The notes: generated by a model from the sequence alone, not told the origin. DNA of 62,988 bases, filler included, from Rhabdomonas costata (GCA_019059605.1; 47 parts of 47 records of this genome joined end to end with filler, not necessarily neighbours in it), one strand, 5' to 3'. Shown: positions 6,280 to 60,290, counted from the first letter of the whole stretch. Translations and numbers: made by a program.

Positions 6280-6780
6280 GCGGGGGCCTCGGCCTTCGAC
6301 GCCTTTTCCTACAATAGAAAGGCCACAGAGGCGCATCCAACACACACTCACACAACACCAAGAGAGAGAGAGACGGCACAAACGGGAAAAGCGGGCGGCG
6401 GTGAACACCACCACCCACACGACGCAACTTCACCACAATCTGTCTGACACATGGGGAAAGAGGGTGGAGCTGACTTCCATACTGCCAACCACAAACTTCC
6501 AAAAACCAGCCTAGAAGCGTTCTGCTAGCCTCCAGCTCGTCCAGGGAGACAACAGAAATCTACTTCGAGATCAATTTATTTGGTTTCAACCCTTTTCCAC
6601 TTGACAACAACCCANNNNNNNNNNNNNNNNNNNNNNNNNNNNNNNNNNNNNNNNNNNNTTAATTAATTAANNNNNNNNNNNNNNNNNNNNNNNNNNNNNN
6701 NNNNNNNNNNNNNNGTTTGTGGTTCTCCTTCATATATTTTTATTATTAATGAAGTTTCATTATCTGTATCATTCGAAATA

Positions 6781-7794
6781 ATGGATATTATAATACCACG
6801 TAATACAGTAATACCTGCAAATAAAACAAATATATATTCGAATGATACAGATAATGAAACTTCATTAATAATAAAAATATATGAAGGAGAACGGCAATTA
6901 ACAAAGGATAATACATTATTAGGAACATTAACATTAATGAATTTAGAACCAGTACCAAAAGGCTATGCGGAAATTTGTGTTAGATTTGAAATAAATTTAA
7001 ATGGAATAATAAATGTATCGGCACATGAACTTAAGAATAATATAAAACAGGATATACAAATTAATTTAAATAAAGGAAGATTAACAGAAGAACAAATTAA
7101 TTGTTTAATAGAAAATGCGAAGAGAATGGAGACACAAGATAATAATAATAAAATGAAAATATTACTACGTAATAAAATAAATGATTATTTTTTCATAATA
7201 AAATACAATTTATCATTAAAAAATGTGTTAATGACACAAGAAGATAAACAAGAACAAATAAATAAAGTTGAAAAATTAGAAAAATTATTTTTAGAAAATA
7301 ATGAATTATATGATATTAATGATTATAAAGAAATAATACAACAATTAGAAAATGAATATGGTAATTTAACAAATAGATCTGTATTACAAGATAATAATGA
7401 AATTGAAAATATAAATGAAAATAAAAAAGAAGAAGTTACATACAATGAAATAGATTATAAAGATGAATTATTAAGAATATGTGAAACAAAAAAAGAAGAA
7501 TTTAAAGATATTATAGAAGATACATTAATTTGGTTATATACAACAGAACATACTGATGATGAATTAATAAAAAAAATACAAGAAATAAATAATTTATCAA
7601 ATAATGAATCAGAAATAGTAAATACATGTAAAACAATATTACAATTTTTAGAAACAGAAGTATCTAAAAATATACAAAAAGAATTAACATCAGAAATCGA
7701 ATATTTTAAAAAAGTAATAGAAACGAATCAAGGAGATGAACAAATAATAAATGATTATTGTAACAGGATATATGAGTTTATTAATGAAAAATAA
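6781..7794 (+). CDS. hsp70: Divergent Hsp70, C-terminal half (substrate-binding domain, lid and long extension), giant-virus-like; 5' truncated
   Basis: IIPRNTVIP, IKIYEGERQLTKDNTLLG, FEINLNGIINVSA and NKGRLTEEQI are Hsp70 SBD motifs. The gene is intronless and very AT-rich, and has no EEVD or KDEL end. Confidence 0.9.
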   Translation: MDIIIPRNTVIPANKTNIYSNDTDNETSLIIKIYEGERQLTKDNTLLGTLTLMNLEPVPKGYAEICVRFEINLNGIINVSAHELKNNIKQDIQINLNKGRLTEEQINCLIENAKRMETQDNNNKMKILLRNKINDYFFIIKYNLSLKNVLMTQEDKQEQINKVEKLEKLFLENNELYDINDYKEIIQQLENEYGNLTNRSVLQDNNEIENINENKKEEVTYNEIDYKDELLRICETKKEEFKDIIEDTLIWLYTTEHTDDELIKKIQEINNLSNNESEIVNTCKTILQFLETEVSKNIQKELTSEIEYFKKVIETNQGDEQIINDYCNRIYEFINEK

Positions 7795-7818
7795 AGTGTA
7801 TAATTAAAGTATATATAA

Positions 7819-7957
7819 ATGACTATTGATATGAATAAAATTTTAAATAAAATAGAGGAAAAATATCAATTACGATATTGTGCCAGTATATTATCAATTC
7901 CTCTAAAATGTATAGAAAGCGGTGAAATGATAATTCAAGCAGGATCGCCACAAAACC
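7819..7957 (+). CDS. Hypothetical protein, 5' part, 24 nt downstream of the Hsp70
   Basis: ATG-initiated ORF open to the contig end, with the same AT-rich codon use and virus-like tight spacing. Confidence 0.65.
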
Positions 7958-36788: not shown

Positions 36789-37601
36789 GTGTGGTTTTGG
36801 GGCGAAATAATCGGTCCTACCCGAGGCCCCCGACGATTGGTGAGGTTCCGGAGGCCAGCTGAAGAGCCTAGACAGGCACAGCTTGTTGAACCTCCAGAAC
36901 ACAGAACAGCGAGTAGAGAAAGAACCAAAAAAACTCTATCAGTGCAAATGCAAAAGAGAACATTCATTCAAAAAAAAAACATTGTAAAAACGATCCCATC
37001 GGCAAACCGCGAGCTTGCTAACTTGAAGGAAGGATCCTGTTCCGCGATGGCTTCTGAAGTAGCCCTGAAGTAGAATAAAGTACATCGGGCTTCACTCCCT
37101 CGCTCGATCAAGGATTTACCATGGCCTTTTCTCTGGTGCAAGCCCGTAAAAACACACCCAGCGCTATAGTTCAGGGCGGGGATGAAAGTAAGTGATCGTG
37201 TTTTTTACCTGATCCACGTGTGCCCACGAACCGGCCAGCCGACGTGTTGACCGTAACCCGAATTTGGCGGGATATATAGCAAAGTGCGCAAATGTGCTTT
37301 GCCACAACGGAGACTTCCATTCTTAACAACCAGCACCTCAAACAACCTTTGTAAAACAAGAGGTCCTCCGCGACGAGGGCTGCACAACATCTAAACCAAA
37401 TCGCAAAACATACAAACAAAAAAAGGAAGGAATCCTTGAAGCTTCGCCGTCTGGCATCCCCGATACTCTAACATCCAACTGAATAAAACCACAACAANNN
37501 NNNNNNNNNNNNNNNNNNNNNNNNNNNNNNNNNNNNNNNNNTTAATTAATTAANNNNNNNNNNNNNNNNNNNNNNNNNNNNNNNNNNNNNNNNNNNNTTT
37601 T

Positions 37602-38810
37602 GTGGGTACTGGCTTGCATAAGCTTTGCTTTAGGGAAGTTGCAATGAAGCTCTGCCGCACGCAGAGATACAGCGACGCCTTGCGTGATGTGCTCGAGGAC
37701 TGCGTCGAGACTGAGACGGACGAGAACCGCCTCAAGCTCATCTTCAAATTGATTAAAATGGGCATCTGTGTCAATCATACCACTGGCTCCCTGGTTCCCT
37801 TGCACTATTTGGCCACAATGAAGATCCCTGAGGAGCATCTGCCCGAGCTGAAGAAGCTTCTTGTAGAAGCGAGGGCATGCGTGACAGAAAAGGCCAAATT
37901 CTCTTGCGTTCATGGGTGCCTCCCCATTACCAAGGGACAGACTCCCCTGGATATTCCCAAGACTCGTGAGATGCGGACGCTTCTGCAGGAAGTTCAAGAA
38001 GAAATTAGCAAAATCAGTGATTCCAAGCCTCAGCTGCACACGGTGCTGTGGATCAGCACAGACACCCTAGCAAAGGAAACAGAAAACGTTCGTACAGCCC
38101 TTGGCTCGAAAGACTTTGTCGAGGTGGACTACTTGGAGCTGAAGCTCGGCAGAGTGAAAACTCCGCTCTCTGGAGATCCCTGGCAAACCCAAGTTAGTAA
38201 AGTGCTGAACAAGAAAATGACGCACCTTGCCAAGGCCAGCCTGGAGGACCAGCCCTTGGAATGGCTGGTTGCCATTGTGGTGGAGTGGTCCGTAAAAGAA
38301 CACGCTGACCAAGTGAGCCACATCATCAACGTGTTGAAGGCTCACATTGGAGCTTGCTACAAGGAGCACCCGTACTGGCTGAAGATTATCTTGATGGTCC
38401 CTGACCTGAGGATCCAGCCTTCCAGCAACCGTACGGCGGTTTTTTCCACCGACGCGGCCACCCAGGACATCATTGTGCACACCCCGGTCGACGTGAACGT
38501 CTTCGCGCTCCACCGTGGTGCGACCGTGACTGACCCAGAGGACACCAAGGACTGCGACCTGGGAATTCAGCAGCTGAACTATCATCTGAACCAGGCCATG
38601 AAGTACTGCCGTCCCGTGGAGCCACCAAACCTCACTGTCCTGTGGATCTGCACCTCTGACAAGATCTCCTCATCGACCCTCAGTGCCCGGCAGACTCTGG
38701 ACGAGATGCGCGCGCTTCGTGTGGTGACCGTAGTCCTGGACACCATTGACCAAAGGGATGTCCGTGCGTGGCTCAGTGGGGTGCTGGAGGAGTACCTGGA
38801 ACCGGTACCG
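37602..38810 (+). CDS. Ankyrin-like segment followed by a tandemly duplicated unknown alpha/beta domain; open at both ends
   Basis: Uninterrupted frame of about 400 aa. GICVN...PLHYLA...LKKLLVEARA...GQTPLDI is ankyrin-like; TVLWI recurs about 200 aa apart. Confidence 0.75.
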
Positions 38811-40676
38811 GGCTCCAGGTACTCCTCCAAAACCCCAACNNNNNNNNNNNNNNNNNNNNNNNNNNNNNNNNNNNNNNNNNNNNTTAATTAATTAANNNNN
38901 NNNNNNNNNNNNNNNNNNNNNNNNNNNNNNNNNNNNNNNTCAGTAACCCATGGACGCATGAGGTGAAATTGAACCAAGGCGCTCGATCCGCGATGTAACT
39001 CAGCCATGATGGGACCACGTGTTACGTTGACCCTATGCGCAGGAGTCGCAGTGAGATACCCTGCGTAGTTGGGCGTAGGATGAAAGCCCTGGTGATGGAG
39101 GCCAGGCTATAGCGTAAACCAGCCCCGCATGAGGCAAGGCGCGTGGTGGCCGGTGGTATATGCCACTCAACCCACGTAGCTGAGCCCGATGTTGGTGCCT
39201 GGGGTGAGCTTGCTGTGTAACCATACCTATACGTATGGCAATGCCTGTAAGCCCCAGGGAGTCTGGAGCTGCATCACATCCCGTAGGAGGCTGTGTGCTG
39301 GACTTAGCATAGTAGGTACAACCGTACGTATGTGTATCGGTACAACCACTACTAAGGATCCCACGTGCAGTAGTACTAGCGATGTTGATGTTGGTCACAG
39401 CAGTCCTACCACTGGAGGTTGCACTACCGCATAGTTGGCACAGCACCACAGATGGCATGGATGCACTCGACCCACTCCATACACCCTATGCCATGGTGGT
39501 TGATGCGACACACCTGGTAATAGCATTGGTGCTAGAGGTACGTGATGATCGATGTTGTTACCCGTAGGACCGCTCCAATCACCAGATGTCATCATAGTCC
39601 CTTGGTGATACCATTCTGTAACGGAGGCTGCCAAGACCGACATGCAACATCCCTTCCTTCCACCCTCCAGAGGTGAGTGCGTAGAAGGAGTAAAGGGTGA
39701 TGTTGACATGATGGCTATGCGATGCTGGTGGTTGAGACCTGCTGCCTGTGAGGCGAAGGAGTGGAAGAAGTGAAACCACCACCAGACACACAGTGCATGC
39801 CAGGAGTGACACGAAGCCTCTACCATCAACGTAAGCCTAAACCTAAGCGTAACCTTCACTGAGGGTATTCGCTACGGCTACGCCAAGGACGGAGTGACAC
39901 GTACCGGCTTATGCCGGGGAGTGGAACGAAGTGACGCGTATGGTGATACGTTGATGGAAGGACCGACCGAAGGCACCTTATGATGGCGTAGGGAGGGACG
40001 TGTAGTGGTTGAGAGTGATAGGAGCAAACCACCAGCAGCTGCGTTGTTATTACTGGCCCAAAAACACCACCTTAAGACCGAAACCCAAATACCCAAATAC
40101 CCGATGAATTGAAACACTCGACTCGGAGACACGAATACCAACACCAATACGAATACCGAACCCCAAATACCGAACTCAGAAGNNNNNNNNNNNNNNNNNN
40201 NNNNNNNNNNNNNNNNNNNNNNNNNNTTAATTAATTAANNNNNNNNNNNNNNNNNNNNNNNNNNNNNNNNNNNNNNNNNNNNGGGTTTTGGGTCCAATTG
40301 GGATTCCTTAAGAGGATGTCAGTGGTGGTGATGACAGAGGATGATGTGGACCCGAAGGAGGTGGTGATGAGCCATCCCAATGAGGACCCGTACTAGCGGA
40401 GGAGGAATCACGGGTGGACACAGGTTGTCATAGAGTTCCTTCCAAGAGAACCGGAACTTGACCACACAGAGTTAGTGAGAAGAGGTCCAGTCAGTCAGGT
40501 CGAACTTCAGGAGTTTCTGAATGGTCGCCGAAATCGTTGTCGAGAAGTAGCCGAGAGAATTATCTGAAGACGAACCAGAAACTGGTTCAGAAAGGACGAA
40601 GTTTTCAAAAGGCCAGTTTCGTGGAGAGTATTCTATTCCTGGAAGTGAATATGGTCGAGAAAGTGGTCGATATGTG

Positions 40677-47385: not shown

Positions 47386-48332
47386 CACCTGGGAGGGCTT
47401 GCGGCCCTGCGGCTTTGTCGGAATGGCTAACATCCTTCTGGCCCCTCCCCAACACTTTTCCGAAGGGCAGACAACAACGGGGGGAGGTTGAGGGTGGAGG
47501 ATGGGAAGTTACAGGAGGAGGGGGATCGCGGTGAGACCAGTGCGCAGCGGAGACGATAGGAAATGGTGGTGGAGGAAATGGAAAAGCGCGGGTGCTCTAC
47601 TTTCGAAACAAATATCTGCTCCTGCTCAATGAAGCAAACAAGGCCGCATACTCACTGTTCTCTTTCGCGGAGGACTACAAACTTCGAAAACCGCACGGGT
47701 GGCTTTAGCAATACTTCTCGACACATCTTGACGAAAGATGCAGCAAGACGCGATTGGCTTTGGAGGAAGTATCCCAAGCAAATCCATAACGCCAAATAAC
47801 TCGGGTCATGCTCCCCTCGGGTCTCCTCGTGTCACGTCTGCCTTCCAGAGATTTTCAAGCCCCCTACGCGCCTGCTCGCCTGCTCTAATCCCCACGCCTC
47901 TTTTAAATTTCTCAACAGATTTCTTCACTGGATCGAGGTTTCTTATCTCGTCTTTCGGCCCCGGGTCTGCTTCCGCCTGCTACCACCGCGACCGTGTTGC
48001 GTTTCCAGAACAGAATCCTTTTCACTGACTTCTGGACGTTCTCCAGTCCTTGCCTGCTGCTCAACCAGATCTCCAGAAGCTTCAACTCTAATCGACCTCA
48101 AGGTTTTCCCCCCAACAAACACACAAGTATTATAATAAAGACGCTTCGCAGCATAATTCTTCAGGCGTGGGTTGGATCTGCTGGTATTATCCTGGACTTC
48201 GAGGATAAATAAGGTTACGTCACACCCCAACNNNNNNNNNNNNNNNNNNNNNNNNNNNNNNNNNNNNNNNNNNNNTTAATTAATTAANNNNNNNNNNNNN
48301 NNNNNNNNNNNNNNNNNNNNNNNNNNNNNNNC

Positions 48333-49573
48333 TTTGGGGTGCCCTCGGCCTACCGCGGGGCCCAGGGCACCGCCGTGTGCGGGCTGTTCGGGTTGACGGT
48401 GCCTGCGCCTGCATGCCTGCCTGTGTCTGTGTAGGTTGGCTGGTAACTTCCATTTTTTATCGGTTTGACCGGAGCCGAACCGGAGGCCCTGGCAATCGGT
48501 CGTGGCCGATAAGGGTCCACAGTTCTTGTGATGGTAGTTCTCTTGATTTCTGATTACTTGCAGCTTTCCAGCCGCTTGCTGTATCAATGTGCCTGGGTTC
48601 TTCGGGGTCTTTTTCGGGCCTTTTCCATGGATTTCGAGACTGAGCAGGAGTTTTAGGTTTTTCATGCCTGCATACTAACCCTGGGGGGTTCGGGGGGTGC
48701 TTGGCACACCTAATGGCATAGTCCAGGAGTACTTTTTTCTGGCATCAGAGTGGGCCGCAATGCGTCGGTTTGTGCCTGCACTAGAGTTCCTTTTGGCTTT
48801 CGTATCGGAAAAAGGAATCCTTTATTCGGCAAACTGGTGTGCCCCGTGCACTTGTTTGGGATGCCATTTTAGCATCATTATGTGGTGAGATTCTTTTGCG
48901 CATTTTTTTTTCGCGTGCGATGTGGGCTGATTGTGAGCATGATATGAGAGGGGGGTCATCAGCGTGCGCAGGCAGGATGGACTGCGGAGAGGATATGGCC
49001 CCAACGAGTCCATGCTTCATCGTATAGTTGGGGAGCTCCGAGTCTTCCCAGGACCCCTTGCCCTGGCGAGCCGGGCACAACTTTTTAGTGTGTGGTGGCA
49101 TTCGGATTACTTTTCTCTCTCAGGTCGCGTGCACGGGGGCCAGTGAGAAAACCCTCAAGCGCGTGGGTCTGCCTTACCGCAAGGTACTCCCGTGCTGTTC
49201 CCCCAAATTCCCCCCCTCCCAGTCCAGATACCGCATAACGAACCTGCTCCTTTAGTCGCGAAAACACTACGGGAAATCCCCCACCAGCATCGAAGCGCTG
49301 CGTTTGTCTTCAAAATTATTATGTGTTGCCCATCTCCTCTGATGTGGGGAAGGCAGACAACTCTCCATGTGACCTTACACTGGGAACGGTATAGCAAGGA
49401 TGCCGTTTCCTCCCCCTTTCTTTTCCGTAGATGTCAATCTTCCTCTCATGAAGTGGGTCGACGCCTATGGTTCCAAGCCCTTATCGTGAGCGTCCGCTAG
49501 GTAGCCTGCACTTTGCCGCCCTTCCCTTGGCGCAGGTGTACACACACCCCTTTCACCATGCCTCGTACTACCC
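48333..49573 (+). CDS. cdr: CoA-disulfide reductase / NADH-dependent persulfide reductase family flavoprotein, dimerisation domain; exons 48333-48398, 49124-49183, 49536-49573
   Basis: Two phase-0 GT-AG introns give FGVPSAYRGAQGTAVCGLFGLT|VACTGASEKTLKRVGLPYRK|VYTHPFHHASYYP. This matches CoADR/Npsr YxGxQGTAxxxxFxLTVAxTGxxEKxLKxxGxxYxKVYxHxxxHAxYYPG. Confidence 0.88.
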
Positions 49574-57322: not shown

Positions 57323-59272
57323 GTCTTCTTTCCTTCCATCTCGCTCAGCTCCCCAGCAAGTAGAAGAGACAAAACCATGCCTGATGTCTGATGTGAGGCA
57401 AGTTGTGGAGAATCGCTCGATTTTTTTTGGACGATAGCAGATTTTATGGGTCTCAACACGTGATAATCTGCACGAGAACAGGGCCTGACAAGGGATGGAG
57501 ATATGGGAGCGAGTAAGAGAGAGAGAGAGAGCGAGAGAGAGAGAGAAGAGGATGAAGCAAAAGGAACAAAAAGTGAATGAGATCATCCAGCAAAGCAAGC
57601 TGCATCGCTCACTCAAAAAAACACNNNNNNNNNNNNNNNNNNNNNNNNNNNNNNNNNNNNNNNNNNNNTTAATTAATTAANNNNNNNNNNNNNNNNNNNN
57701 NNNNNNNNNNNNNNNNNNNNNNNNTTTTTTCTGTCATTAAACCAATTGTTTGCCCGAATGATGGCTTTTGGTACTACTTTTCCTTTCCGACTCGTATTAC
57801 CGTTAAGGTGGTGAGAGCTACATAAGAACAAAACCGAGGTAAAAAAAACTGACGGAGTTATGGACACTGCTCCTGGACGCCTGAGCAGCCCTGGAAGGAC
57901 GTCGAGGGCAGGCCTCTATCAATTGACGTTCTGTCCGCTCTGCTCTTGAGGAAGCAGCGCGAATGCTGCTGGAACTGGTCGTTACTGTGGCGGCATTTCA
58001 ATGGCAAAAAGGGAAGCTACTCCAACACCATTAGCTGCGTCCAAGGCATGCCCTGCTGGTACAAGGCCTTCTGCAGAGGCTGCAGCGTGGGGCAGGCCAG
58101 CTCAAAGACCTTCACATCGGAGTTGCAGTCAATCAGAGTGCTGTGATGGTACCAAGCCACGCCACAAGAAAAGAGTGAGGCGAGGCAGATCCCTTTCACC
58201 TCGGGGTGCGGAAGCACCTCGGGCTGAGTCCAACGCAAACCTCCGGACTGCTTGTAGGACCTCAAGGAAGCAATGGGGGTCTGGGCGGCATGCAAGCATA
58301 CTGGTCAAAGTCAAACACCACCAGAACAGTCATGGATACAAATTGAGTTGCGGGAGCAACTTTGAAGAGCTGAAATCAAAGAGCTGCATCAAATGAAGAT
58401 GGGTGGAAGCCACATCGAGGGGAATGGGGGAAGAGAAGGGGCAGGGGCATGACAAGACTTCACCAATGATCGCCATATCACATATAAAAATGACCGTTAA
58501 TCAGTCATCAATCATCAATCATCAGTGTCAACCTCAACCCCCCCAAAAAAAAATGGGCGGGTTGGTGTCGAATTCCGACGTGCTCACTCCGTCCATTCGC
58601 AGCCCACCCTGGCAAAAAAAATTTGAATCTCAAAAAAACCTATCGGCAAGCAATAGCTCCGGCAAAGTCCCCATGCAATGGGGTGAGGAGTAACGTGCGG
58701 TTCACTCCAAACTGCGATCCCATACCACGTTCTCTCGTTCGCGTTATCTCGTGCCAGCGGTGCATCCATCCCGCAATGTAGCTAAGCAGAGTGCATAGGC
58801 TTTCTTGCCTTCATTGCATTCTGCTTTCTTTCATTCTCGCTCTGCCCTCATCAGAAACAAAGCAGACAATCTCCACAACACAACAAAAGGAGCAGCACAT
58901 CGAGTCGACAGGACGGCGTCGAACTAGGGCAAATATATACACCCCAAACCAAACACCCCCACCACANNNNNNNNNNNNNNNNNNNNNNNNNNNNNNNNNN
59001 NNNNNNNNNNTTAATTAATTAANNNNNNNNNNNNNNNNNNNNNNNNNNNNNNNNNNNNNNNNNNNNCGCTGCTAAACGACCGATCCGGTTACTTTCTTGT
59101 TGGCGATGTTTACCATTACCATTTATTTTGCAATGATAGGGTATTATGGGGGGGTTGGAAATCAATGAACGTTTAGCTCTGATAAACGTTTAGAATCTCT
59201 AAACGGTTTTCCCCCACCAAAAAATAAATGAGGCCTAAAGCTAAGCAGCCCTCCTGCCCTCGCGAAACATAC

Positions 59273-60290
59273 AGTGCTCGGTGCCCTCCCTGCAGAACCC
59301 ACCGTTCAGCTCGCCCTCTTCGCCAGGGCCGCAACCCCCGCAGCCAAACCAGATGTGCCCCTCGTACAGCAGCAACAGGGTCACCCCCAGCTGCAGCACG
59401 CAGTGGCCCAGGATGAAGCTCCACATCCGATTGGTGATCAGGGGCCCAGTGCGGTAGATTGGGGCGCGCCGTAGGTTGGTTTCCGATGGGCGCTCCGTCG
59501 TCAGGGCCAGCGCGGCGAAGGTGTCCATTATGAGGTTGAGCCACAGCAGCTGAACAGCCTTCAGGGGCTCGGAGTTGGTCGAGGAGGCCACTGCTCCTGC
59601 ATCGGAAAGAGGAGAGGGGTTGTCCAGAAGATGTCGCTCCAACGACAAATTGAAAACCCAGACAGAGCCCCACAACCGCTGTGACGATAAATCGGTGTCC
59701 AGGACAACGCATCGACTCACTAAATGTCAATGAATATCTGTAGAAGAGTACAGGTATTGTAGACGCATACACCCATCGAGAACGGACTGAAACTCAGAAG
59801 ATTCTAGGTGGGTTGTCCTTAACAAAACAACATAATGAGGACATCGTCTCAGTTTGCGTCGGTTCCGACTGAAGAGCCCGCAAAGGCATGCCGTCCACTG
59901 CAACGGCGATTCCGAATTAATGTCGAAAATACTGAGGAATAAACAGTCCCTTTCAATCGACACGAGAACAAATGGTGCCCCTGGATGCAGCGGCACATAA
60001 CGACGCTGCGTCCTGGCAATTACACAACCAACACAAACAATACTCAATTGGACATTTTTCACAAAAAGCCGGTGCCCCCATAAGACAGAAAGGGGTGAGG
60101 CACCTATGAAAGTGAGCAGCACGGAGCAGATATTCACAGTGAGCTGGAACTGCAGGAACTTCCGGATGTTATCGGTGACCCCCCGGCCCCACATCACGGC
60201 CTTCACCACTGTGGCAAAGTTGTCGTCCAGAAGGACCATTGCGGAGGCCCCCTTCGCGACATCCGTACCACTCCACATCGCGAAGCCCAC
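59273..60290 (-). CDS. P-type IIB (PMCA-like) Ca2+-ATPase, partial; exons 60290-60104 and 59596-59273
   Basis: [32 protein letters not shown]...[13 protein letters not shown] and [25 protein letters not shown]. Confidence 0.95.

What the first reader, a model, noticed from the sequence alone, without database searches (positions are those of the whole stretch)
48333..49573. Intron-containing CoA-disulfide/persulfide reductase: candidate eukaryotic sulfur-reduction system
Seen: three small exons (66, 60 and at least 38 nt) not assembled by the ORF track splice in phase 0 to YRGAQGTAVCGLFGLTVACTGASEKTLKRVGLPYRKVYTHPFHHASYYP. Known: this pattern with HAxYYPG typifies the CoADR/NADH-oxidase group, and is closest to the CoADR-rhodanese enzymes (Bacillus anthracis CoADR-RHD, Shewanella Npsr) that reduce CoA-disulfide or per/polysulfide in prokaryotes. 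Euglenozoan thiol redox is normally attributed to trypanothione and glutathione. Inference: a domesticated lateral transfer giving CoA-based redox or NADH-dependent sulfur reduction as an electron sink in low-oxygen, sulfidic habitats, possibly working with the DsrE-like protein. The two genes are on unlinked contigs, so the system is a hypothesis.
Basis: partly seen in the sequence, partly recalled or inferred. Interest (0 to 1): 0.8.

Follow-up and report, generated by a model that had tools for sequence, protein, structure and literature searches.

The report
Persulfide-reductase gene fragment with introns
A 1.2-kb contig of a fragmented protist genome holds three small spliced exons from the middle of a bacterial-type sulfur-detoxifying flavoenzyme gene; green algae and cryptophytes carry close relatives, so it is a real but fairly ordinary new member of a known family.

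Summary
Contig 48332-49573 holds three exon pieces (66, 60 and 38 nt) separated by GT..AG introns of 725 and 352 nt, all in phase 0. Joined, the 54 residues align without gaps to residues 332-385 of a 569-aa protein, P0003 (37/53 identical). P0003 has the CoADR-rhodanese architecture, and its best solved relatives are Npsr (3NTA), B. anthracis CoADR-RHD (3ICR) and CoA-persulfide reductase (8A56).

The family assignment therefore holds. The redox cysteine, the rhodanese domain and the N-terminus lie off this contig and were not seen.

The [quoted passage not shown] reading is only partly supported:
- Relatives 60-77% identical to P0003 are already in public databases for chlorophytes and cryptophytes, beside cyanobacteria and many other bacteria.
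- The Chlamydomonas protein is annotated "NADH oxidase" and predicted to be plastid-targeted.
- One of the two intron positions is shared with an intron-rich algal-type homologue (L120).
- The fragment's place in the tree is unresolved, next to the chlorophyte clade.
- No DsrE partner and no conserved bacterial operon were found.
- The window's taxon is only weakly hinted to be euglenozoan.

Most likely it is an NAD(P)H-dependent persulfide/polysulfide reductase that came by an algal route. Verdict: new member of a known kind, modest interest. This scan earlier noted a similar gene in Naegleria.

The parts
48333..48398 (+). Exon piece 1 (66 nt, 22 codons, open at the contig's 5' end). It corresponds to P0003 residues about 332-353, the end of the NAD(P)H/central region running into the dimerisation domain.
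   Evidence: Translation. The only PDB hits are the chains of 3NTA/3NTD/3NT6/4OCG at residues 336-356. tblastn E 1e-4 to 0.025 with 7 family queries.
48399..49123 (+). Intron 1, 725 nt, GT..AG, phase 0, with a pyrimidine tract before the acceptor.
   Evidence: GC 0.52 against 0.74 in exon 1. No Pfam family above cut-off in its ORFs on either strand; one weak DUF4100 match, E 0.012, below the cut-off.
49124..49183 (+). Exon 2 (60 nt, 20 codons), holding the conserved TGASEK stretch of the family.
   Evidence: Translation. The 75-aa open frame around it retrieved exactly one protein, P0003, from 5.8 billion. tblastn E 2e-6 to 0.08.
49184..49535 (+). Intron 2, 352 nt, GT..AG, phase 0. Same position and phase as an intron of the intron-rich homologue in locus L120.
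49536..49573 (+). Exon piece 3 (38 nt, open at the contig's 3' end). It holds the H-A-x-Y-Y-P motif of the dimerisation domain.
   Evidence: Translation. tblastn E 0.027-3.5. Collinear with P0003 residues 374-385.

Best explanation
The contig is an internal piece of an intron-containing nuclear gene of a protist. The gene encodes a member of the CoADR-rhodanese (Npsr / CoADR-RHD / CoA-persulfide reductase) branch of the pyridine-nucleotide-disulfide oxidoreductases.

By homology (inferred, not shown here) the full protein is a FAD-containing homodimer of about 550-600 residues. A cysteine in the C-terminal rhodanese domain takes up sulfane sulfur. A tightly bound CoA swings it to the single redox cysteine beside the flavin. 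NAD(P)H then reduces the mixed species and releases H2S.

The likely role is removal of persulfide/polysulfide and protection of the CoA pool and thiols, probably in an organelle, rather than respiration.

The gene most likely reached this organism through the algal/plastid gene pool, in which chlorophytes and cryptophytes carry the same family, and not by a private recent bacterial transfer.
For: Shown here:
- Exon structure and collinearity with P0003.
- Conservation: 22 of 24 highly conserved columns kept, no stops, GC3 0.85.
- P0003, the relative retrieved with exon 2, has Pyr_redox_2, Pyr_redox_dim and Rhodanese.
- P0003's PDB scores: 574.6 bits to 3NTA, 567.3 to 3ICR (CoADR-RHD), 465.5 to 8A56 (CoA-persulfide reductase). 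Plain CoADR 1YQZ scores 248, NADH peroxidase 198 and NADH oxidase 2BC0 145.
- Of the 120 listed relatives, 120/120 keep the flavin-side Cys (116 as SF[AS]NC, 4 as SYANC) and 120/120 have C-x4-R in the last 140 residues.

Distribution:
- Chlorophytes are 67-77% identical to P0003, cyanobacteria 61-64%, Guillardia 61%. Chlamydomonas leiostraca, Hariotina and Hanusia also carry it.
- 302 prokaryotic relatives were found across Cyanobacteria, Acidobacteriota, Desulfobacterota and others.

Origin:
- Intron 2 lies at the same position and phase as an intron of L120. L120 is an intron-rich homologue with 16 tblastn pieces and up to 85% identity per piece to the Tetradesmus protein.
- In the best tree the fragment is sister to the chlorophyte clade, though with only 54% support.

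Mechanism, from papers:
- Passages of PMC7969121: a rhodanese Cys accepts the sulfur and bound CoA chaperones it to the Cys next to FAD. The enzymes reduce persulfides and polysulfide and show no activity with CoA disulfide.
- Passages of PMC9405070: CoAPR reduces CoA persulfide to CoA plus H2S by a 'swinging pantothenate arm'.

Organellar hint: Cre06.g271200 is listed as predicted chloroplast-targeted in Table 2 of PMC8448359. Algal proteins have longer N-termini before the redox Cys, up to position 109 against a median of 46 in the other rows.
Against: - Only 54 of about 560 residues are visible. The redox Cys, the rhodanese domain and the N-terminus of this gene were not seen.
- There is no RNA evidence, and the rest of the genome is not held.
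- The fragment sits on a long branch (0.79) and its position is unresolved.
- Three of its residues occur in none of the 120 relatives.
- The shared intron lies at an AAG|GT proto-splice-like site, so parallel intron gain is possible. The other window intron is not shared, and L120 has an intron that the window lacks.
- No eukaryotic member has been assayed. Chlamydomonas annotators call theirs an H2O2-forming NADH oxidase, and AfNpsr does show NADH oxidase activity.
- Bacterial gene neighbourhoods gave no conserved partner to support a specific physiological role.
Confidence: 0.7

Rival explanations
1. One reading: a private lateral transfer into a euglenozoan that provides CoA-based redox or NADH-dependent sulfur reduction as an electron sink in low-oxygen, sulfidic habitats, working with a DsrE-like protein.
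For: Npsr was proposed to support sulfur respiration in prokaryotes (PMC7969121 abstract and introduction). The family is common in anaerobes such as Desulfobacterota. The best named hits of a Ca-ATPase exon elsewhere in the window include Neobodo and Eutreptiella.
Against: Close homologues occur in oxygenic phototrophs, namely chlorophytes, cryptophytes and cyanobacteria. The Chlamydomonas protein is predicted to be plastid-targeted. No DsrE family hit appeared among the 150 longest ORFs of the window. The genes are unlinked. PMC7969121 itself argues for a protective or housekeeping role where sulfur respiration is absent. The euglenozoan identity of the window rests on hits of at most 62% identity that are mixed with fungi.
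Confidence: 0.07
2. The gene encodes a plain NADH oxidase or CoA-disulfide reductase that has lost, or never had, the rhodanese domain, and acts on O2 or CoA disulfide.
For: The visible fragment contains only the shared dimerisation-domain region. The Chlamydomonas homologue is annotated 'NADH oxidase (H2O2-forming)'. AfNpsr has NADH oxidase activity.
Against: All 120 nearest relatives carry the rhodanese domain and its Cys. P0003 scores below the curated cut-offs of CoADR (460.6 against 578.8) and of the H2O-forming oxidase (219.9 against 600). Exon 1 hits only the 3NTA/3NTD/3NT6/4OCG chains in the PDB, 4 of 4 hits.
Confidence: 0.08
3. The fragment is a dead relic (pseudogene), or DNA of another organism such as an alga that contaminates the assembly.
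For: Only 164 coding nt are visible, with no expression data. The branch is long and three residues are unique. The window contains at least one compositionally foreign contig, GC 0.21 at 6715-7957. No identical protein was found among 5.8 billion, though only proteins of 133-2000 residues were searched.
Against: There are no stops and the splice sites are canonical. 22 of 24 conserved columns are kept and GC3 is 0.85. Contig GC of 0.545 is typical of the window, where 46 of 47 contigs lie at 0.475-0.58. The fragment does not nest inside chlorophytes.
Confidence: 0.12

Closest known systems
NADH-dependent persulfide reductase Npsr of Shewanella loihica PV-4 (PDB 3NTA, 3NTD, 3NT6, 4OCG; the organism name is taken from passages of PMC7969121 and from recall)
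   Same: It is the best PDB match of the full-length relative P0003, 574.6 bits over residues 16-562 including the rhodanese domain. It is the only PDB match of exon 1 alone. It shares the H-A-S-Y-Y-P motif (printed alignment).
   Different: It is a prokaryotic, intronless gene. By my hand count on the alignment printed it is about 29/55 identical to the window fragment. The window gene's catalytic cysteines were not seen.
Bacillus anthracis CoADR-RHD (PDB 3ICR/3ICS/3ICT) and Enterococcus faecalis CoA-persulfide reductase CoAPR (PDB 8A56)
   Same: They have the same two-domain architecture as P0003 and score 567.3 and 465.5 bits. The mechanism with two Cys about 27 A apart bridged by bound CoA comes from passages of PMC9405070.
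   Different: CoAPR sits in a CstR-regulated cst-like operon. No such context exists for a eukaryotic gene, and no conserved operon was found in 46 bacterial loci of the window's subfamily.
Uncharacterised algal homologues, e.g. Chlamydomonas reinhardtii CHLRE_06g271200v5 (P0016) and Tetradesmus obliquus OEZ85_013349 (P0004); Guillardia theta (P0061)
   Same: They are eukaryotic and belong to the same subfamily, 61-77% identical to P0003. They carry N-terminal extensions. One intron position is shared with the algal-type locus L120.
   Different: The window fragment falls outside the chlorophyte clade (SH-aLRT 86 for that clade). In the exon-3 and exon-1 motifs it resembles cyanobacterial rows more than chlorophyte rows. 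Equating CHLRE_06g271200v5 with Cre06.g271200 rests on the naming convention (inference).
Plain CoA-disulfide reductase (S. aureus 1YQZ; TIGR03385) and NADH oxidase/peroxidase (2BC0, 1NHP)
   Same: Same fold and the same single-cysteine flavoprotein superfamily.
   Different: They have no rhodanese domain. They are much more distant from P0003, at 248, 145 and 193 bits. P0003 scores below the curated NCBIfam cut-offs.

Membership tests
CoADR-rhodanese / Npsr / CoAPR subfamily of pyridine-nucleotide-disulfide oxidoreductases | Dimerisation domain with the H-A-x-Y-Y-P-G motif, collinear with family members | tested here: met
   Exon 3 reads the motif up to P, where the contig ends. The alignment to P0003 residues 332-385 is gapless. 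22 of 24 conserved columns are matched.
CoADR-rhodanese / Npsr / CoAPR subfamily of pyridine-nucleotide-disulfide oxidoreductases | Closer in sequence to rhodanese-bearing members than to plain CoADR/Nox | tested here: inconclusive
   29-38 identities over 53-54 positions to 120 relatives, all of which carry PF00581. The PDB hits of exon 1 are 4 of 4 chains of 3NTA/3NTD/3NT6/4OCG. No plain CoADR/Nox sequence could be obtained for a direct comparison with the joined fragment.
CoADR-rhodanese / Npsr / CoAPR subfamily of pyridine-nucleotide-disulfide oxidoreductases | Single redox Cys beside FAD (SFANC-type motif) | not testable with these tools
   It lies about 280 codons upstream, off this contig. 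No genome is held and no other window contig carries pieces of the gene. It is present in 120/120 relatives.
CoADR-rhodanese / Npsr / CoAPR subfamily of pyridine-nucleotide-disulfide oxidoreductases | C-terminal rhodanese domain with catalytic Cys (C-x4-R loop) | not testable with these tools
   It lies downstream of the contig end. It is present in 120/120 relatives and as Pfam Rhodanese in P0003, E 2.9e-13.
CoADR-rhodanese / Npsr / CoAPR subfamily of pyridine-nucleotide-disulfide oxidoreductases | Tightly bound CoA and NAD(P)H-dependent persulfide/polysulfide reduction | not testable with these tools
   This is a biochemical property, known for bacterial and archaeal members (passages of PMC7969121 and PMC9405070). 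No eukaryotic member was found assayed in searches.
Plain CoA-disulfide reductase (NCBIfam TIGR03385 equivalog) | Score above the curated cut-off of 578.8 bits | tested here: not met
   The relative P0003 scores 460.6 bits, and L001's cyanobacterial gene 496.9 bits. The window fragment itself is too short to score.
H2O-forming NADH oxidase (NCBIfam NF046103) | Score above the curated cut-off of 600 bits | tested here: not met
   P0003 scores 219.9 bits.

The most novel reading that the evidence does not exclude
A non-chlorophyte protist, possibly a euglenid, has kept an algal-derived CoA-persulfide/polysulfide reductase. It belongs to an entirely unstudied eukaryotic branch of this enzyme family that works in plastids or mitochondria. 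There it keeps CoA and protein thiols free of sulfane sulfur. That task could matter for photosynthesis, since the Chlamydomonas gene is a candidate from acetate-requiring mutants. It could also matter for CoA-heavy anaerobic metabolism such as wax-ester fermentation.
Probability: 0.15. Interest if true: 0.55.

Novelty: new member of a known kind. Interest (0 to 1): 0.3.

Why it matters
The enzyme family is described in the literature I could search as prokaryotic. The abstract start of PMC6026696 says 'in bacteria and archaea', and searches found nothing on eukaryotic members.

The data here show an uncharacterised eukaryotic branch in green algae and cryptophytes, to which this protist's gene fragment is most similar. 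The proteins keep both catalytic cysteines in all full-length members seen.

If these enzymes are organellar persulfide reductases, they would add an NAD(P)H-driven way of handling reactive sulfur species in algae, beside glutathione- and trypanothione-based systems.

The window contributes only a 54-residue fragment, so it adds one more taxon, not a new mechanism.

Tried and rejected
- Whole-genome search: no genome is held.
- Pfam on the single exons: nothing.
- PDB with the 75-aa frame around exon 2: only chance seryl-tRNA-synthetase hits, E 0.14 and above.
- Looking for the organism's own full-length protein: the exon-2 frame retrieved only P0003, 76% identical over the exon. No identical protein of 133-2000 residues is therefore in that collection. 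Shorter proteins were not searched.
- Rfam on the whole window: 0 matches, so no RNA marker of the taxon.
- Taxon from a Ca-ATPase exon: best hits only 52-62% identical. Named ones include Neobodo, Eutreptiella, many fungi and a fish, but no green alga or plant. This is a weak hint only.
- Atlas look-up of the 413-aa frame: weak ankyrin hits at 0.88, below the 0.9 guide.
- Gene neighbourhoods in 46 prokaryotic loci with full flanks: the commonest neighbour clusters are a PAS/GAF histidine kinase (10 loci) and an ABC ATPase (9 loci). Both are generic families. An ArsR-type regulator occurs in 3 loci. There is no conserved operon.
- Plain CoADR/Nox comparators from control genomes: the search gave no loci for them.
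- DsrE partner: none among the 150 longest ORFs of the window. ORFs under about 104 aa and spliced genes were not scanned, so it is not excluded.
- AU test of 'fragment plus chlorophytes': not needed, because that grouping is already in the best tree at 54% support.
- Supplementary tables of PMC8448359 (S4) were not seen and may say more about the Chlamydomonas mutant.

Full report
**What is there**

The window is not one stretch of genome. It is 47 contigs of 1236-1247 nt joined by spacers, sorted by length. The finding occupies one whole contig, 48332-49573.

- 48333-48398: 22 codons.
- 49124-49183: 20 codons.
- 49536-49573: 12 codons plus 2 nt.

The stretches between them (725 and 352 nt) begin with GT and end with AG behind pyrimidine-rich tracts. 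Both junctions are in phase 0. Exon 1 and exon 3 run to the contig ends, so this is an internal fragment.

Exon GC is 0.74/0.65/0.55 against 0.52/0.54 in the introns, and third-position GC is 0.85. Other open frames of the contig, on both strands, match no Pfam family above threshold.

**Is it more than chance?**

A single exon is too short for the big searches. I therefore sent the unaltered 75-aa open frame that contains exon 2. Among 5.8 billion proteins it retrieved exactly one, P0003.

The exon peptide joined in a script aligns to P0003 residues 332-385 without a gap across both junctions, 37/53 identical.

Exon 1 alone finds only the four chains of 3NTA/3NTD/3NT6/4OCG in the whole PDB, at residues 336-356. 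Two exons thus point independently to adjacent positions of one family.

In tblastn of seven family proteins against the whole window, the three exons were the three best hits for five queries. For the other two queries, exons 1 and 2 were the two best hits. No other contig held credible pieces.

The fragment matches 22 of the 24 columns that are at least 90% conserved in 120 relatives. Three of its residues are seen in none of them.

**What family?**

P0003 (569 aa) has Pyr_redox_2, Pyr_redox, Pyr_redox_dim and a C-terminal Rhodanese domain. Its best NCBIfam model is CoA-disulfide reductase, but at 460.6 bits it is below the 578.8 cut-off. The H2O-forming NADH oxidase model scores 219.9 against a cut-off of 600.

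| Solved structure | Bits to P0003 |
|---|---|
| 3NTA (Npsr) | 574.6 |
| 3ICR (CoADR-RHD) | 567.3 |
| 8A56 (CoA-persulfide reductase) | 465.5 |
| 1YQZ (plain CoADR) | 248 |
| NADH peroxidase | 198 |
| 2BC0 (NADH oxidase) | 145 |

The 3NTA match includes the rhodanese domain.

All 120 listed relatives of P0003 carry the rhodanese Pfam family and a C-x4-R loop near the C-terminus. All keep the flavin-side cysteine: 116 as SF[AS]NC and 4 as SYANC. For the window gene itself, both cysteines, the rhodanese domain and the N-terminus lie off the contig and remain unseen.

**Who else has it?**

The closest relatives of P0003 are chlorophyte proteins at 67-77% identity: Tetradesmus, Monoraphidium, Raphidocelis, Edaphochlamys, Volvox, Gonium, Chlamydomonas, Astrephomene and Micractinium. 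Cyanobacteria follow at 61-64%, Guillardia at 61% and Verrucomicrobia at 61-62%. Cluster look-ups add Chlamydomonas leiostraca, Hariotina and the cryptophyte Hanusia.

In prokaryote genomes, 302 of 338 candidate stretches encode relatives. They span Cyanobacteria, Acidobacteriota, Desulfobacterota, Myxococcota, Chloroflexi and others.

The window fragment is about equally similar to cyanobacterial and chlorophyte rows, at most 38/53 to either.

**Tree and introns**

A quick ML tree was built from 49 rows and 241 columns. The 49 rows are 48 representatives at under 88% identity, chosen from the 120 relatives, plus the window fragment.
- The fragment sits on a long branch (0.79), outside the chlorophyte clade (SH-aLRT 86).
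- In the best tree it is sister to that clade with only 54% support. Its position is unresolved.

A metagenome scan found one intron-rich eukaryotic homologue, L120:
- It gives 16 tblastn pieces, up to 85% identical per piece to the Tetradesmus protein, and its GC is 0.63.
- Its intron after the conserved P-Y-x-K lies at exactly the position and phase of the window's intron 2.
- The window's intron 1 is absent from L120, and L120 has an intron inside the window's exon 1.
- One shared position at an AAG|GT site is suggestive of common eukaryotic descent, not proof.

**Which organism?**

No genome is held and Rfam finds nothing. A Ca-ATPase exon on another contig has best hits of only 52-62% identity. 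Named ones among the best are Neobodo (kinetoplastid) and Eutreptiella (euglenid), but also many fungi and a fish, with no green alga or plant among the 120 listed.

The window is therefore probably not a chlorophyte. 'Euglenozoan' is possible but not shown.

**How it most likely works**

These steps are inferred from solved and assayed prokaryotic members:
- A surface cysteine of the rhodanese domain accepts sulfane sulfur. Bound CoA carries it to the cysteine next to FAD. NAD(P)H reduces it and H2S is released.
- These enzymes reduce persulfides and polysulfide and show no detectable activity with CoA disulfide (passages of PMC7969121).
- The Enterococcus enzyme reduces CoA persulfide and protects the CoA pool. 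Its two cysteines lie about 27 A apart and are bridged by a swinging pantothenate arm (passages of PMC9405070).

The nearest relatives live in oxygenic phototrophs. The Chlamydomonas gene is listed as 'NADH oxidase (H2O2-forming)', predicted chloroplast-targeted, among 253 candidate photosynthesis genes (Table 2 of PMC8448359, passages only). I therefore favour a protective, probably organellar persulfide-reductase role over a respiratory electron sink.

Bacterial neighbourhoods gave no conserved partner:
- In 46 loci the commonest neighbours are generic kinases (10 loci) and ABC ATPases (9 loci). An ArsR-type regulator occurs in 3.
- In all four bacterial metagenome loci I inspected, chosen for their long match spans, a separate rhodanese-like stretch lies just upstream of the reductase gene.
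- No DsrE hit was found among the window's 150 longest ORFs. Shorter or spliced genes were not scanned.

**Known or new?**

Searches for eukaryotic members of this enzyme group found no paper. The three papers using 'CoADR-RHD' are bacterial. The proteins themselves are in public databases for many algae, unnamed or misnamed.

This scan had earlier noted an intronless homologue in Naegleria (e1-633846; not tested here). It had also noted several bacterial CoADR-rhodanese modules with ArsR regulators.

**Verdict**

The finding is one more eukaryotic member, seen only as a fragment, of a known enzyme kind whose eukaryotic branch is uncharacterised. The 'system' with DsrE and the sulfidic-habitat role are unsupported. 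Interest is modest.

Noticed in passing
window 6715-7957: This contig has GC 0.21, against 0.475-0.58 in the other 46 contigs. It carries a 359-aa open frame that matches the C-terminal half of Hsp70 (Pfam HSP70, E 4e-34) and is rich in N, K and I. It is compositionally foreign: an organelle, a virus, a symbiont or a contaminant.
   Followed up: partly
window 59244-60290 (- strand): Two open stretches of a PMCA-type Ca2+-ATPase gene (Cation_ATPase_C, E 5.8e-18), apparently exons. The best database hits are only 52-62% identical and include Neobodo and Eutreptiella beside fungi.
   Followed up: partly
window 37599-38837 (+): An open frame of 413 aa fills a whole contig. It matches no Pfam family, and only weak ankyrin-repeat look-alikes (0.88) turn up in the protein atlas.
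   Followed up: partly
window, among the 150 longest ORFs listed (members not located): Single ORFs match AAA_2 (E 2.2e-26), MASE3, a membrane sensor domain I recall as mostly bacterial (E 2.5e-16), Kelch repeats (E 8.9e-07) and Got1/Sft2 (E 1.3e-05). I did not work out which contigs carry them.
   Followed up: no
L120:2973-8778: A metagenome contig with an intron-rich eukaryotic CoADR-rhodanese gene: 16 tblastn pieces, GC 0.63, and up to 85% identity per piece to the Tetradesmus protein. It is useful as a genomic comparator for intron positions.
   Followed up: partly
L087:1839-2156, L089:609-851, L090:6001-6246, L112:6001-6258: In all four bacterial metagenome loci inspected, a separate rhodanese-like stretch lies about 270-310 nt upstream of the CoADR-rhodanese gene on the same strand. 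It may be a stand-alone sulfurtransferase partner.
   Followed up: no
L001:5551-5904 (- strand) and two other loci: An ArsR-family HTH gene lies upstream of the reductase gene, divergent from it in L001. It occurs in 3 of 46 prokaryotic loci, which echoes earlier notes of this scan on ArsR-type sulfur sensors beside this enzyme.
   Followed up: partly
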